NCBI GenBank assembly: GCA_035388785.1
Contig: DAOOQN010000003.1
Location: 16,497 to 80,496, forward strand
Direction of reading: 5' to 3'
Length of the DNA stretch: 64,000 bases
From: a bacterium
Lineage (GTDB): Bacteria > Patescibacteriota > Patescibacteriia > UBA2196
Shown: positions 11,029 through 59,683 of the stretch, in pieces
Layout of the letters: each line of letters starts with the position of its first letter
How positions within the stretch are numbered: position 1 is the stretch's first letter
The notes under the pieces: generated by a model
Databases searched by the model: none
Told to the model about the DNA's origin: nothing
Seen by the model: only the letters and a program-made list of their open reading frames with translations
Made by a program: the position numbers and the translations under genes

Positions 11029-11062
11029 AAAATCCGCCTCGTGTAAGAGGCGGATTAAATTT
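11029..11062 (-). terminator. rho-independent terminator downstream of efp: AATCCGCCTC-N6-GAGGCGGATT plus T-run on the minus strand
   Basis: Read directly from the sequence. Confidence 0.6.
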
Positions 11063-14737: not shown

Positions 14738-14826
14738 GGAATAGAAAAAATAACTTTATAAAAATAGTATAATTTTTTTTCATTCATCTGTCAAACAAAA
14801 AAACATCTTAACAGTAGATGATTTTT

Positions 14827-14901
14827 TGGAGCGGGTAACGGGAATCGCACCCGTTTCTCCACCTTGGCAAGGTGGCATAATAGCTGTTATACGATACCCG
14901 C
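14827..14901 (-). tRNA. tRNA-Gly (anticodon GCC), CCA encoded
   Basis: Manual cloverleaf: acceptor GCGGGTA/TACCCGC, anticodon stem CCACC/GGTGG, loop TTGCCAA, discriminator U. The T-loop reads TGCGATT (G at position 55, unusual). Confidence 0.75.
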
Positions 14902-15150
14902 AAGTGTGCTATACAGTTGTTTTTTTATAACTTCTCGGCCACGACCTGATTTTAAAAATATTTCTCTAACTCTTGCATCGTGCTCATTAATATAACTTTC
15001 AGCATATAGTAATTTTATAGGCCCTCGTTCCCTGGTTGTCTTTGTTTTGCCACCGTTATGATACTGAAGCCTTTGTCTTAAATCTGTGGTAAAGCCAACA
15101 TATAGACTATTATTCTTCTGACACAATAAAATGTAAACGTAAAAAAACAT
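14887..15150 (-). CDS. GIY-YIG nuclease family protein (small YhbQ/UPF0213-like), 87 aa
   Basis: YVYILLC...YVGFTTDLRQRLQYHN is a GIY-YIG motif. Its 5-prime end overlaps the tRNA-Gly 5-prime end by 15 nt as annotated. Sits between two tRNA-Gly-derived copies. Confidence 0.7.
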   Translation of the reverse strand: MFFYVYILLCQKNNSLYVGFTTDLRQRLQYHNGGKTKTTRERGPIKLLYAESYINEHDARVREIFLKSGRGREVIKKQLYSTLAGIV

Positions 15151-15163
15151 ACCATTCTATTTT

Positions 15164-15258
15164 TGGGCGGGTAATCCGCCGAATCGGCGGATTTCTCCAC
15201 CTTGCCTGTCCGCCTTTGGAGGAGCAAGGTGGCATAATAGCTGTTATACGATACCCGC
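15164..15258 (-). tRNA. tRNA-Gly-like duplicate with a 19-nt insertion between anticodon nucleotides 35 and 36 and a divergent T-arm and acceptor 3-prime strand; probable pseudo-tRNA
   Basis: Matches tRNA-Gly(GCC) from the 5-prime end through CCACCTTGC. It then carries TCCTCCAAAGGCGGACAGG before CAAGGTGGAGAAA, followed by a different T-arm CCGCCGATTCGGCGG. The 36-nt run caaggtggcataatagctgttatacgatacccgcaa is shared with 14866-14903. Confidence 0.5.
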
Positions 15259-15379
15259 AAAAAATATTTATAATAACATATTAACAAAACTGTTTTCTTC
15301 TGTCAAAAATAAAAAGAGGTGCACGCTTGACGTGCCACCTCTTGGAGGCTATAACTTAATTTATAAAAAAGTAGTCAAA

Positions 15380-59332: not shown

Positions 59333-59345
59333 GGGCAATTAGCTC
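59333..59345 (+). repeat. 13-nt copy of the tRNA-Val 5-prime end (GGGCAATTAGCTC), followed by the hairpin CCGAATG-TGTT-CATTCGG
   Basis: Exact match to 59446-59458. Confidence 0.55.
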
Positions 59346-59445
59346 CCGCCCCGAATGTGTTCATTCGGTTCGGGCGAGGAAGCGAGAAAAAGAGAATTGT
59401 ATTTTAAAACCGCTGCGGGTAGAAAATTTTTAAAAAATAAGATCC

Positions 59446-59519
59446 GGGCAATTAGCTCAGCTGGTTAGAGCGCTACATTGACATTGTAGAGGTCACTGGT
59501 TCAAGTCCAGTATTGCCCA
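59446..59519 (+). tRNA. tRNA-Val (anticodon GAC)
   Basis: Manual cloverleaf: acceptor GGGCAAT/ATTGCCC. Anticodon stem CTACA/TGTAG, loop TTGACAT. Confidence 0.8.
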
Positions 59520-59583
59520 TTTTTATATATTTTTTTATTTTAAATAAATGTAAGGTTTCCGCTCAGCACCTACGGTGTGAGCG

Positions 59584-59601
59584 GATTCGCCTCTGGCGGA
59601 C
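59584..59601 (+). repeat. 18-nt near-exact copy of the tRNA-Val 3-prime end (CAAGTCCAATATTGCCCA), preceded by the hairpin CCGCTCA-N12-TGAGCGG
   Basis: 17/18 identity to 59502-59519. Confidence 0.55.
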
Positions 59602-59683
59602 AAGTCCAATATTGCCCACTAGAATTAGACTTTGCAGTCTTGATTGATTGAATTTGTGTAGATAAAACTGTTTTTATAAAATT

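What the first reader, a model, noticed from the sequence alone, without database searches (positions are those of the whole stretch)
14827..15258. GIY-YIG nuclease gene flanked by tRNA-Gly(GCC) and a partial, insertion-bearing duplicate of the same tRNA
Seen: tRNA-Gly at 14827-14901 is intact. A second copy at 15164-15258 shares the 5-prime half exactly, with a 36-nt identical run and a further identical anticodon-stem segment. It carries a 19-nt insertion (TCCTCCAAAGGCGGACAGG) between anticodon positions 35 and 36, plus a completely different T-arm and acceptor 3-prime strand that still pairs with the 5-prime acceptor. An 87-aa GIY-YIG (YhbQ-like) nuclease gene lies between them and overlaps the first tRNA by 15 nt. 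Inference: this looks like a footprint of a GIY-YIG-associated mobile or duplication event targeting a tRNA gene, leaving a pseudo-tRNA. The 35/36 insertion position is not the canonical 37/38 intron site, so a simple intron is unlikely.
Basis: partly seen in the sequence, partly recalled or inferred. Interest (0 to 1): 0.55.

Follow-up and report, generated by a model that had tools for sequence, protein, structure and literature searches.

The report
Hairpin-nuclease cassette lodged in tRNA-Gly gene
A tiny, selfish-looking DNA cassette (a GC-rich hairpin plus an 87-residue GIY-YIG nuclease gene) sits in a glycine tRNA gene of a candidate-phyla-radiation bacterium, leaving a disabled tRNA copy upstream and an intact one downstream. 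The same layout recurs at many tRNA genes in other bacteria, which does not appear to have been described.

Summary
tRNA-Gly(GCC) (14901->14827) is intact. It carries a 19-nt insert between anticodon nt 35/36, and a palindrome (ATCCGCCGATTCGGCGGAT) replaces its T-arm. An intact 87-aa GIY-YIG ORF lies between the copies and ends inside the true tRNA.

Copy 2 is not an intron-bearing tRNA, and the locus is not a one-off footprint. The layout [tRNA fragment + hairpin]-[small GIY-YIG ORF]-[intact tRNA] recurs in Falkowbacteria, Saccharibacteria and other MAGs, at tRNA-Gly, His, Ser and Asp. A mirror-image form occurs at Glu, Leu and other tRNAs.
- 36 of 80 homologous loci abut a same-strand tRNA (about 1 expected).
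- The hairpin stem covaries.
- Only 3 of 100 comparable tRNA-Gly loci carry an adjacent ORF.
- A relative with an ORF-free site shares the window's leader and trailer.
- The window holds a second, decayed cassette at tRNA-Val.

The closest known system is Ssn/SRM, single-domain GIY-YIG ssDNA nucleases with flanking hairpins. That paper never mentions tRNA, and its SRM pattern does not match here.

Verdict: a new variant of a known kind, probably a tRNA-gene-resident and at least formerly mobile hairpin-nuclease cassette. The mechanism is inferred.

The parts
15278..15306 (-). Sigma-70-like promoter (TTGACA-17-TAATAT, TG-extended), about 20 nt upstream of copy 2. It is the presumed original tRNA-Gly promoter and now drives tRNA'-ORF-tRNA.
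   Evidence: 10 of 12 matches. The leader 15269-15259 plus the tRNA 5' half aligns with the leader of the ORF-free relative L190.
15164..15258 (-). tRNA-Gly' (copy 2), the disabled promoter-proximal duplicate of tRNA-Gly.
   Evidence: Alignment. No tRNA call by Rfam or ARAGORN. Cloverleaf-like fold with elongated anticodon and T arms.
15224..15258 (-). Exact copy of tRNA-Gly nt 1-35.
15205..15223 (-). 19-nt insert between anticodon nt 35 and 36. It consists of the hairpin TCCTCC-AAA-GGCGGA (one stem mismatch) plus CAGG and is a short-loop member of the cassette hairpin family.
   Evidence: It has 1 mismatch to TCCGCCNNNGGCGGA, with 0.03 such matches expected per window. The same hairpin, TCCGCCCAAGGCGGA, occurs in the L024 and L045 cassettes. 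The same 35/36 position is used in L001, L017, L021 and L068.
15192..15204 (-). Exact copy of tRNA-Gly nt 36-48.
15173..15193 (-). Perfect palindromic hairpin AATCCGCCGATTCGGCGGATT that replaces the T-arm. It is the presumed recognition motif of the nuclease (SRM-like).
   Evidence: It is conserved 17-45 nt upstream of the ORF start in the closest homologues. Stem covariation is shown.
15167..15174 (-). Copy of the acceptor 3' strand TTACCCGC, followed by CCAAAAAT, which resembles the true trailer.
14887..15150 (-). Intact 87-aa single-domain GIY-YIG nuclease gene. Its stop codon lies in the D-arm of the downstream tRNA.
   Evidence: PF01541, E=2.8e-15. All family-invariant residues are present: Y6, Y17, G19, R27, H31, E51, R62, E63. 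Homologues end in AG[IMV]V.
14827..14901 (-). Intact tRNA-Gly(GCC), the functional copy, followed by the ancestral trailer.
   Evidence: The trailer 14826-14793 aligns with the L190 trailer.
59333..59379 (+). Second, decayed cassette, left end: a copy of tRNA-Val nt 1-13 (59333-59345) followed by a GC-rich hairpin (59346-59379).
59376..59468 (+). Remnant of the C-terminal third of a GIY-YIG ORF. It reads into tRNA-Val, with its stop (TAG) in the D-loop.
   Evidence: Family HMM E=6.1e-6, profile positions 55-81. BLASTP to residues 57-79 of the window protein, E=5e-5. Translation.
59446..59519 (+). Intact tRNA-Val(GAC).
59558..59619 (+). Second cassette, right end: two hairpins (59558-59585 and 59586-59600, the latter TTCGCCTCTGGCGGA) followed by a copy of the tRNA-Val 3' end (59601-59619).

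Best explanation
Copy 2 is a by-product and component of a very small cassette lodged in the tRNA-Gly gene. The repeat unit is 357 bp and consists of a GC-rich hairpin, a short spacer, and an 87-aa single-domain GIY-YIG nuclease ORF that runs into the tRNA 5' end.

**Shown by sequence comparison.**
- An ancestral single tRNA-Gly (leader-tRNA-trailer, as in relative L190) now reads: leader, tRNA' (nt 1-35, hairpin insert, nt 36-48, hairpin in place of the T-arm, acceptor 3' strand), 16 nt, ORF, intact tRNA, trailer.
- The same module recurs at other tRNA genes and in other phyla.
- Its presence is patchy.
- It decays. A relic sits at tRNA-Val in this same window.

**Inferred.**
- The hairpins are the nuclease's own recognition motif. 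This parallels the Ssn/SRM system, where a ~94-aa GIY-YIG enzyme binds a hairpin in single-stranded DNA and cuts next to it.
- tRNA genes are targets because their heavily transcribed, hairpin-forming DNA is often single-stranded. The anticodon loop at 35/36 is a recurrent junction.
- The cassette enters or spreads by recombination within the tRNA sequence. Either a single crossover of a 357-bp unit carrying a hairpin-marked tRNA copy, or repair of a nuclease-induced break from a cassette-bearing template, would do this. Both routes automatically leave the disrupted copy next to the promoter and regenerate an intact tRNA downstream.
- The nuclease is transcribed from the tRNA promoter through tRNA'. 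tRNA' cannot function as a tRNA.
For: **Architecture in the window.** (357-nt period).

**Same architecture elsewhere.**
- L003/L137 (Falkowbacteria, 75% protein identity), L009 (Saccharibacteria), L150 and L002 have a tRNA-Gly' whose T-arm is the same palindrome, followed by the ORF and then the true tRNA-Gly.
- tRNA-His loci L008, L011, L012, L015 and L016 have tRNA nt 1-22, the hairpin, the anticodon loop, and then the ORF.
- tRNA-Ser loci L017, L021 and L068 have nt 1-35/36, hairpins, and then the ORF. This is the same anticodon 35/36 junction as in the window.
- Tandem ORF-tRNA'-ORF arrays occur in L002 and L068.

**Statistics.**
- A same-strand tRNA is adjacent in 36 of 80 genome loci. 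It lies downstream in 17 (0.36 expected) and upstream in 19 (0.72 expected).
- Flanking direct repeats of at least 12 nt occur in 25 of 83 loci, against 1.75 in mismatched controls.
- Perfect GC-rich hairpins occur at 2.17 per kb at ORF ends and 0.25 per kb elsewhere.
- In the hairpin stem, 96% of cells are paired and 5 of 8 pairs show double changes. None of 500 shuffles reaches this.

**Insertion and patchiness.**
- Only 3 of 100 tRNA-Gly(GCC) loci with the same 3' sequence have an adjacent ORF. Five of 120 have an intact or relic ORF within 600 nt.
- L190 has DUF167, then 67 nt, then tRNA-Gly, with the same unusual T-loop and a matching leader and trailer, but no ORF.
- The GIY-YIG protein is 77% identical in L001, whereas the neighbouring DUF167 is 38% identical.

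**Discrete unit.** L024 and L045 share a 287-bp block (from 1 nt before the ATG to 13 nt past the stop, 79% identity) with unrelated flanks. It follows tRNA-Glu in one and tRNA-Leu in the other. The trailing tRNA fragment in L045 does not match its neighbouring tRNA.

**Decay.** L150 has a truncated ORF, and the window has the tRNA-Val relic.

**Precedent.** PMC11893778.
Against: - No cut site, activity or mobility has been observed. Everything rests on comparative sequence.
- The published SRM search pattern has 0 hits in the window and 0 near any of the 82 ORFs.
- Membership of the Ssn clade (CDD cd10448) could not be tested. The only solved relatives are UPF0213 proteins.
- GIY-YIG enzymes hydrolyse DNA and cannot join strands, so host recombination must be invoked for integration.
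- The core hairpin is a perfect palindrome. It could equally be a dsDNA site for a dimer, or an element of the mRNA leader.
- In this locus the hairpins lie on one side only.
- L190 is not pristine. It carries a partial tRNA-Gly copy with a different hairpin downstream.
- Closely related cassettes sit at the same tRNA-Gly site in several lineages. Long vertical persistence with occasional loss could therefore explain part of the patchiness.
- All comparison data are MAGs and metagenome contigs.
Confidence: 0.6

Rival explanations
1. The tRNA-like leader is primarily a functional cis-RNA. Copy 2 would keep its acceptor stem and a T-arm-like helix so that RNase P/Z process the tRNA-promoter transcript and release a short-leader nuclease mRNA. 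The hairpins would serve to destroy tRNA function or to set mRNA stability. This reading is compatible with a mobile origin.
For: - Copy 2 keeps perfect acceptor pairing and a very stable cloverleaf-like fold.
- The ORF has no evident promoter of its own and lies 16 nt after tRNA'.
- In L024 the ATG follows the tRNA 3' end directly.
- The hairpin lies at a fairly constant 17-45 nt before the start codon.
Against: - In the His- and Ser-type loci the upstream copy lacks the whole 3' half, so no cloverleaf or acceptor stem can form.
- In L001 and L006 tRNA' is heavily truncated.
- In L003 tRNA' has a C·A mismatch in the anticodon stem.
- Only the hairpin is conserved, not the tRNA shape.
Confidence: 0.2
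2. The system is a domesticated, non-mobile host system. An Ssn-type ssDNA nuclease with its hairpins would be kept at tRNA loci to modulate natural transformation or recombination, as proposed for Neisseria SsnA/NTS. It would be inherited vertically and frequently lost.
For: - SsnA modulates transformation in N. meningitidis (PMC11893778).
- CPR Saccharibacteria are naturally competent (PMC10187176 abstract).
- The ORF is intact, with all conserved residues.
- Related cassettes occupy the same tRNA-Gly site in several lineages.
Against: - Occupancy is only about 3-4% of comparable tRNA-Gly loci.
- Homologous cassettes with sharp boundaries sit at different tRNAs.
- The nuclease is far more similar between genomes than the neighbouring host gene.
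- Decayed copies exist.
- The window has only 2-3 hairpins of this family, all at the two cassettes, so there is no genome-wide motif to act on.
Confidence: 0.15
3. The arrangement is an ordinary tandem duplication of tRNA-Gly followed by random decay of one copy, with an unrelated gene lying between the copies by chance.
For: Tandem tRNA duplications and pseudo-tRNAs are common, and the two copies are identical over 57 nt.
Against: - The same ORF + hairpin + tRNA-fragment combination recurs in dozens of independent loci and at several tRNA species.
- The 'decay' consists of two insertions or replacements by one specific covarying hairpin family.
- The rest of the copy has no point substitutions at all.
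Confidence: 0.03
4. Copy 2 is a functional tRNA-Gly with a short non-canonical intron.
For: It has a cloverleaf-like fold with an intact acceptor stem, D-arm and anticodon stem.
Against: - There is no Rfam tRNA hit at E<=10.
- ARAGORN fails even when the insert is removed and the threshold relaxed.
- The T-loop consensus is absent.
- The insert closes the anticodon loop into a continuous helix with no bulge-helix-bulge.
- The surrounding genes are bacterial (NusA and others), and bacteria are not known to have the archaeal-type splicing endonuclease (general knowledge).
- Homologous upstream copies in other loci are truncated.
Confidence: 0.02

Closest known systems
Ssn nucleases with NTS/SRM hairpin repeats (Chenal et al., Nat Commun 2025, PMC11893778)
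   Same: Both have a single-domain GIY-YIG protein of about 90 aa. In both, the gene is accompanied by GC-rich hairpin-forming repeats 20-50 nt long, often on both sides. The authors themselves note an insertion-sequence-like layout. Some homologues retrieved here carry NTS-like hairpins, for example L115 (TCCCGCAATGCGGGA) and L075 (GGTCACCCCGCTAAGCGGGGTGA on both sides).
   Different: The published SRM pattern does not match here. The hairpins here are embedded in duplicated tRNA fragments, and the gene abuts a tRNA gene; that paper contains no occurrence of 'tRNA'. There is no genome-wide expansion of the motif in this window. Clade membership (cd10448) and ssDNA specificity are untested.
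Free-standing GIY-YIG homing endonucleases, e.g. phage T4 SegB in the tRNA gene cluster (PMC2330249)
   Same: Both have a GIY-YIG catalytic domain, lie among tRNA genes, show patchy presence, and are expected to spread by break-induced recombination with co-conversion of flanks.
   Different: Seg and I-TevI-type enzymes carry a separate DNA-binding domain and are more than 200 aa long (general knowledge). The protein here is the bare 87-aa catalytic domain with a cis hairpin. It also duplicates part of the target tRNA and is chromosomal in bacteria rather than phage-borne.
Non-intron insertion sequences with GIY-YIG ORFs in rRNA genes of CPR bacteria (Tsurumaki et al., J Bacteriol 2024, PMC11270868)
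   Same: The host group is the same, and both involve GIY-YIG ORFs in genes for structured RNAs. In both, insertions lie at the tips or bases of stem-loops, and the elements are not group I or II introns.
   Different: Those elements interrupt rRNA genes. tRNA genes are not mentioned, and neither a hairpin motif nor target duplication is described in the passages read.
IS200/IS605 and REP/RAYT systems (hairpin-recognising single-strand DNA transposases)
   Same: Both are very small, with hairpin motifs next to the enzyme gene and a proposed action on single-stranded DNA. This analogy is also drawn in PMC11893778.
   Different: There is no HUH/Y1 transposase here. A GIY-YIG hydrolase cannot perform strand transfer, and the target is a tRNA gene with a long duplicated segment.
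tRNA-gene-integrating islands and prophages (integrase-mediated)
   Same: Both insert at a tRNA gene, flank the insert with a duplicated tRNA segment, and regenerate an intact tRNA.
   Different: The unit here has no integrase and is only 357 bp. In the 5'-type loci the 5' part of the tRNA, rather than the 3' part, is duplicated, and the disrupted copy carries hairpins.

Membership tests
Ssn family (cd10448) + SRM hairpins | Single-domain GIY-YIG protein of about 90-100 aa | tested here: met
   The protein is 87 aa, and PF01541 covers residues 3-68 with no other domain. The family consensus and invariant residues are intact.
Ssn family (cd10448) + SRM hairpins | Placement in the Ssn clade (top CDD hit cd10448, or E<1e-10 to N. 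meningitidis SsnA) | not testable with these tools
   No CDD library and no SsnA sequence were available. NCBIfam gave nothing above cut-off. The best PDB relatives are UPF0213 proteins 1zg2 and 1ywl. A profile search returned only unnamed or generically named relatives.
Ssn family (cd10448) + SRM hairpins | Gene flanked by hairpin-forming repeats | tested here: met
   In the window, the hairpins lie at 15173-15193 and 15209-15223, upstream of the ORF only. Across 82 loci, hairpins are about 9-fold enriched at ORF ends and are present in 43 of 82. The stem covaries.
Ssn family (cd10448) + SRM hairpins | Repeats match the published SRM search pattern HGTCWYN(0-2)YYVSBRHN(0-5)WNVSBRGN(0-2)RNCYNB | tested here: not met
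   There are 0 matches in the window and 0 within 500 nt of any of the 82 ORFs.
Ssn family (cd10448) + SRM hairpins | Cuts only single-stranded DNA, next to its hairpin | not testable with these tools
   This needs biochemistry.
   The similarity is real but distant: 1zg2 (BH0048) E=8.6e-9, 1ywl E=1.1e-6, and B. subtilis yazA 38% identity. It covers only the shared GIY-YIG core and cannot separate UPF0213 from Ssn-type proteins.
Intron-containing tRNA | Recognised by tRNA covariance or heuristic models | tested here: not met
   Rfam gives no hit at E<=10. ARAGORN makes no call with the intron option, at a relaxed threshold, or after removal of the insert.
Intron-containing tRNA | Canonical T-arm and an intron at 37/38 or in a bulge-helix-bulge | tested here: not met
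   The T-arm is replaced by a palindrome with a 3-5 nt loop. The insert lies at 35/36 and forms a continuous helix.
Free-standing GIY-YIG homing endonuclease (Seg / I-TevI type) | GIY-YIG catalytic domain with conserved Tyr, Tyr, Arg and Glu | tested here: met
Free-standing GIY-YIG homing endonuclease (Seg / I-TevI type) | Separate C-terminal DNA-binding domain | tested here: not met
   The protein is 87 aa in all, and the last 4 residues are encoded by the tRNA.
Free-standing GIY-YIG homing endonuclease (Seg / I-TevI type) | Presence/absence polymorphism at a conserved target, with degenerate copies | tested here: met
   Three of 100 tRNA-Gly loci are occupied. An ORF-free relative, L190, exists. 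Decayed copies are L150 and the window's tRNA-Val relic.
Free-standing GIY-YIG homing endonuclease (Seg / I-TevI type) | Enzyme cleaves the empty allele | not testable with these tools
   This needs biochemistry.
Integrase-mediated tRNA-integrating element | Tyrosine or serine recombinase gene within the element | tested here: not met
   The unit between the repeats is 357 bp and holds only the 87-aa ORF.
IS200/IS605-type element | HUH (Y1) transposase TnpA | tested here: not met
   The only ORF is GIY-YIG.

The most novel reading that the evidence does not exclude
Small GIY-YIG/hairpin cassettes of about 290-360 bp are a widespread, previously unrecognised class of autonomous selfish elements. 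They home specifically into genes for structured RNAs (tRNA, possibly rRNA). They do so by cutting the hairpin-folded single-stranded DNA of the gene, with a preferred site in the anticodon loop at 35/36. They then use the universally conserved tRNA sequence as a portable homology arm, and they always regenerate an intact tRNA. That would make them among the smallest self-mobilising DNA elements. It would also reveal the natural life cycle of the Ssn nuclease family.
Probability: 0.3. Interest if true: 0.85.

Novelty: new variant of a known kind. Interest (0 to 1): 0.62.

Why it matters
The Ssn family of hairpin-guided single-strand DNA nucleases was described only in 2025. Its biological role outside Neisseria, and whether the 'hairpin-gene-hairpin' unit is mobile, were left open.

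The loci assembled here give natural evidence on both points. They show filled sites and an ORF-free site, sharp cassette boundaries, the same cassette type at different tRNAs, tandem arrays and decayed relics. This pattern fits the gain-decay-loss cycle of a selfish element with a defined target class (tRNA genes) and a recurrent junction (anticodon 35/36).

It also explains a class of odd 'pseudo-tRNAs' in CPR genomes, including mis-annotated ones such as a 93-nt 'tRNA-Arg' in L012 that is a hairpin-bearing tRNA-His copy. It links to the unexplained GIY-YIG insertions in CPR rRNA genes. Finally, it supplies many natural enzyme/hairpin pairs for groups developing Ssn enzymes as ssDNA tools.

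Tried and rejected
- **SRM pattern.** The published SRM regular expression gave no hits in the window or near any ORF. I checked by hand that my implementation accepts the NTS consensus.
- **Protein classification.**
  - NCBIfam gave only sub-threshold hits.
  - PADLOC gave only weak partial hits at E of about 2e-3.
  - PHROGs gave none.
  - PDB gave only UPF0213 and SLX1.
  - tblastn against plasmids gave 11 distant yazA-like hits.
  - A profile search of 5.8 billion proteins gave at least 7995 relatives but no named Ssn or Neisseria entry among the 120 shown.
  - Ssn-clade membership therefore stays open.
- **Supplements.** The Ssn paper's supplementary files are not held.
- **Chimera test.** The tRNA' of L003 has the anticodon-stem strands CCACC/GGTAG. 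This combination is absent from 118 natural tRNA-Gly genes. It is one mutation away from a natural type, so it is not proof of a recombinant junction.
- **Target-site duplications.** L001 shows TTGC on both sides of its hairpin. The window and the Ser loci do not show a clean repeat, so this is left unresolved.
- **Hairpin at 11031-11056.** Its arms resemble the motif, but it is an ordinary terminator after a gene.
- **Other GIY-YIG copies.** tblastn found no other intact GIY-YIG in the window. Only the HMM found the tRNA-Val relic.
Full report
**1. Observation**

Everything in the finding lies on the minus strand. ARAGORN and Rfam call one tRNA-Gly(GCC) at 14827-14901.

A pairwise alignment and the repeat finder show the make-up of 15258->15164:
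- It repeats tRNA nt 1-35 exactly.
- It then carries the 19-nt insert TCCTCCAAAGGCGGACAGG.
- It then repeats nt 36-48 exactly.
- It replaces the T-arm with the perfect palindrome ATCCGCCGATTCGGCGGAT.
- It then repeats the acceptor 3' strand TTACCCGC.

The 87-aa ORF between the copies (15150->14887) is a bare GIY-YIG domain (PF01541, E=2.8e-15). Its last four codons and its stop are the first 15 nt of the true tRNA.

Copy 2 folds into a very stable cloverleaf with long anticodon and T arms, both as RNA (z=-5.5) and as ssDNA (z=-5.6). Rfam does not recognise it as a tRNA even at E<=10. ARAGORN does not call it even after the insert is removed in silico.

A good sigma-70-type promoter sits about 20 nt upstream of copy 2. 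The ORF has no convincing promoter of its own.

**2. It is a recurrent module, not a scar**

The closest homologues of the protein end in AG[IMV]V, so they also read into a tRNA-Gly 5' end. Several loci show the same order of parts.

tRNA-Gly loci, with the T-arm replaced by the same palindrome, then about 10 nt, the ORF and the true tRNA-Gly:
- L003/L137 (Falkowbacteria, 75% identity).
- L009 (Saccharibacteria).
- L150.
- L002.

L003 and L001 carry extra copies of the hairpin in the D-loop. L001 also has one in the anticodon loop after C35.

Loci at other tRNA species:
- Homologues next to tRNA-His have tRNA nt 1-22, the hairpin, the anticodon loop, and then the ORF.
- Homologues next to tRNA-Ser(CGA) have nt 1-35/36, two hairpins, and then the ORF. 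This is the same 35/36 junction as in the window.
- A mirror-image form also exists: intact tRNA, ORF, hairpins, then a 3' tRNA fragment (L024, L045, L051, L075).
- L002 and L068 are tandem arrays.

**3. Numbers**

- Of 80 genome loci holding a homologue, 36 have a same-strand tRNA directly adjacent. In 17 it starts at or just after the ORF end (0.36 expected). In 19 it ends within 150 nt upstream (0.72 expected).
- Exact direct repeats of at least 12 nt bracket the ORF in 25 of 83 loci, against 1.75 in mismatched controls.
- Perfect GC-rich hairpins outside called tRNAs occur at 2.17 per kb around ORF ends and 0.25 per kb elsewhere.
- There are 19 distinct copies of the main hairpin class (nCCnnCCGAnTCGGnnGG). 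The inner CCGAnTCGG is fixed, although I selected on that. The outer five pairs vary by compensatory changes: 96% of cells are paired, 5 of 8 pairs show double changes, and none of 500 shuffles reaches this.
- That covariation points to a hairpin in a single strand rather than a duplex protein site.
- The window's 19-nt insert is a short-loop relative of the same family. It has one mismatch to TCCGCCNNNGGCGGA, with 0.03 such matches expected per window. It nearly matches the hairpin of the L024 and L045 cassettes.

**4. Evidence for insertion, patchiness, transfer and decay**

- **Patchiness.** A metagenome scan for the 3' two-thirds of this tRNA-Gly returned 120 loci. Only 3 of the 100 with enough upstream sequence have an adjacent GIY-YIG ORF. 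Five of 120 have an intact or relic ORF within 600 nt.
- **ORF-free relative.** L190 shares the window's unusual T-loop (TGCGATT) and the DUF167 gene just upstream, but has no ORF. Its leader aligns with the sequence upstream of copy 2, and its trailer aligns with the sequence downstream of the true tRNA. This is what insertion into a single ancestral gene predicts. L190 does carry a partial tRNA-Gly copy with a different hairpin downstream, so it may be a post-loss site.
- **Transfer.** The nuclease of L001 is 77% identical to the window's, while the adjacent DUF167 is only 38% identical.
- **Discrete unit.** L024 and L045 share a 287-bp block with sharp ends and unrelated flanks. It follows tRNA-Glu in one and tRNA-Leu in the other. 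The trailing tRNA fragment in L045 does not match its neighbouring tRNA, as if carried along.
- **Decay.** L150 has a 5'-truncated ORF.
- **Second cassette in the window, at tRNA-Val(GAC).**
  - It starts with a copy of tRNA-Val nt 1-13, followed by a hairpin.
  - Next comes the C-terminal third of a GIY-YIG ORF reading into the tRNA (family HMM E=6.1e-6).
  - The intact tRNA follows, then two hairpins and a copy of the tRNA 3' end.
  - Of the 12 tRNAs in the window, only Gly and Val have self-fragments in their flanks.

**5. Comparison with what is known**

Chenal et al. (PMC11893778) showed three things about ~94-aa single-domain GIY-YIG proteins, which they call Ssn (CDD cd10448). They are site-specific nucleases of single-stranded DNA. 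They bind a hairpin repeat (NTS/SRM) and cut just upstream of it. Most ssn genes are flanked by such hairpins, a layout the authors compare to an insertion sequence. Their text never mentions tRNA.

The present cassettes work like that system in every feature I could test by sequence. However, their hairpins fail the published SRM pattern. I also could not test clade membership, because neither CDD nor an SsnA sequence was available.

In CPR rRNA genes, non-intron insertion sequences encoding GIY-YIG proteins have been reported at stem-loop tips or bases (PMC11270868). T4 SegB is a free-standing GIY-YIG homing enzyme in a tRNA cluster (PMC2330249), but it is a multi-domain phage protein. No paper in the library connects small GIY-YIG genes, hairpins and duplicated tRNA fragments.

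**6. Mechanism**

The architecture, recurrence, patchiness and decay are shown. The rest is inferred.

- **Unit.** The unit is 357 bp: a hairpin-marked tRNA copy, 16 nt, and the ORF.
- **Entry.** Recombination inside the shared tRNA sequence would produce exactly the observed order. This could be a single crossover of a circular or tandem unit. It could also be repair of a break in the tRNA gene from a cassette-bearing template. In both cases the host leader and a disrupted copy end up upstream, and an intact tRNA with the host trailer ends up downstream.
- **Why the intact copy is always distal.** The hairpin interrupts the homology, so crossovers fall on one side of it.
- **Why tRNA genes.** By analogy with Ssn, the nuclease probably recognises the hairpin in single-stranded DNA. 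tRNA genes are highly transcribed and hairpin-forming, so they expose such structures. The recurrent 35/36 junction suggests a preferred cut or entry point in the anticodon loop.
- **Expression.** Transcription probably starts at the tRNA promoter and runs through tRNA'. RNase P cleavage at the true tRNA would remove the stop codon, so expression may be limited to unprocessed transcripts.
- **Open points.** A role for tRNA' as an RNA processing signal is possible in the Gly-type loci but cannot be general. A purely domesticated, vertically inherited system is less consistent with the data but is not excluded.

**7. Verdict**

It is a new variant of the Ssn-type hairpin/mini-GIY-YIG association, resident in tRNA genes and with clear signatures of a selfish element. 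Confidence is 0.6 for the overall explanation. It is about 0.9 for 'component of a recurrent GIY-YIG/hairpin/tRNA module rather than an intron-bearing tRNA or a chance pseudogene'.

Noticed in passing
window 59333-59619 (+): A second, decayed cassette of the same kind sits at tRNA-Val(GAC). It consists of a 5' tRNA fragment with a hairpin, a remnant of the GIY-YIG C-terminus reading into the tRNA, the intact tRNA, two hairpins and a 3' tRNA fragment. Among the 12 tRNAs of the window, only tRNA-Gly and tRNA-Val have self-fragments in their flanks.
   Followed up: yes
window 14839-14853 (-), T-arm of the true tRNA-Gly: The functional tRNA-Gly has the T-loop TGCGATT, with G where the near-universal second T (position 55) is expected. 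The same oddity occurs in relative L190, so it is probably a lineage trait and not damage.
   Followed up: partly
L095, L103, L122, L123, L153, L170, L180, L193 (about 45-215 nt downstream of tRNA-Gly): A conserved element of about 166 nt, GC-rich and lacking an ORF, follows tRNA-Gly and its terminator. It begins with an inverted copy of the T-arm (CGGGAATCGAAC) and ends with a direct copy of the tRNA-Gly 3' end (ATTCCCGTTACCCGCTC). It contains variable hairpins, and 13 of 34 predicted pairs show compensatory changes. It has no Rfam family at gathering score and no GIY-YIG remnant. Its nature is unknown.
   Followed up: partly
L190, about 220-306 in stored coordinates (downstream of its tRNA-Gly): The ORF-free relative carries a partial tRNA-Gly copy (nt ~24-76) after the tRNA. 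An AT-rich hairpin (TTCAAAAGACACCTAAGTGTCTTTTGAA) is inserted in the variable region of that copy. It may be a relic of another insertion.
   Followed up: no
L012 2834-2926: ARAGORN calls a 93-nt 'tRNA-Arg(tcg)' here. It is actually a third, hairpin-bearing copy of the neighbouring tRNA-His, with two inserted hairpins. This is an annotation trap for this element class.
   Followed up: partly
L023, L025, L038, L041, L044, L064, L069, L074, L079, L082 (ORF 3' ends): A large subgroup of homologues ends in RFLSLTG* and has no called tRNA nearby. In L079 these last codons are themselves part of a hairpin (GTCTCTAACGGGTGAATCCCGTTAGAGAC). In that locus the motif overlaps the ORF end rather than a tRNA fragment.
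   Followed up: no
window 14783-14803 and 15295-15315: Two similar promoter-like stretches (TTCATCTGTCAAACAAAAAAA and TTCTTCTGTCAAAAATAAAAA, with TTGACA on the minus strand) precede tRNA-Leu(TAA) and copy 2 respectively. This looks like a shared tRNA promoter style in this genome.
   Followed up: no
window 11031-11056: The hairpin AATCCGCCTCGTGTAAGAGGCGGATT shares the arm sequence AATCCGCC/GGCGGATT with the cassette palindrome. However, it lies after a gene end and is followed by a T-run on the minus strand, so it is most likely an ordinary terminator.
   Followed up: partly
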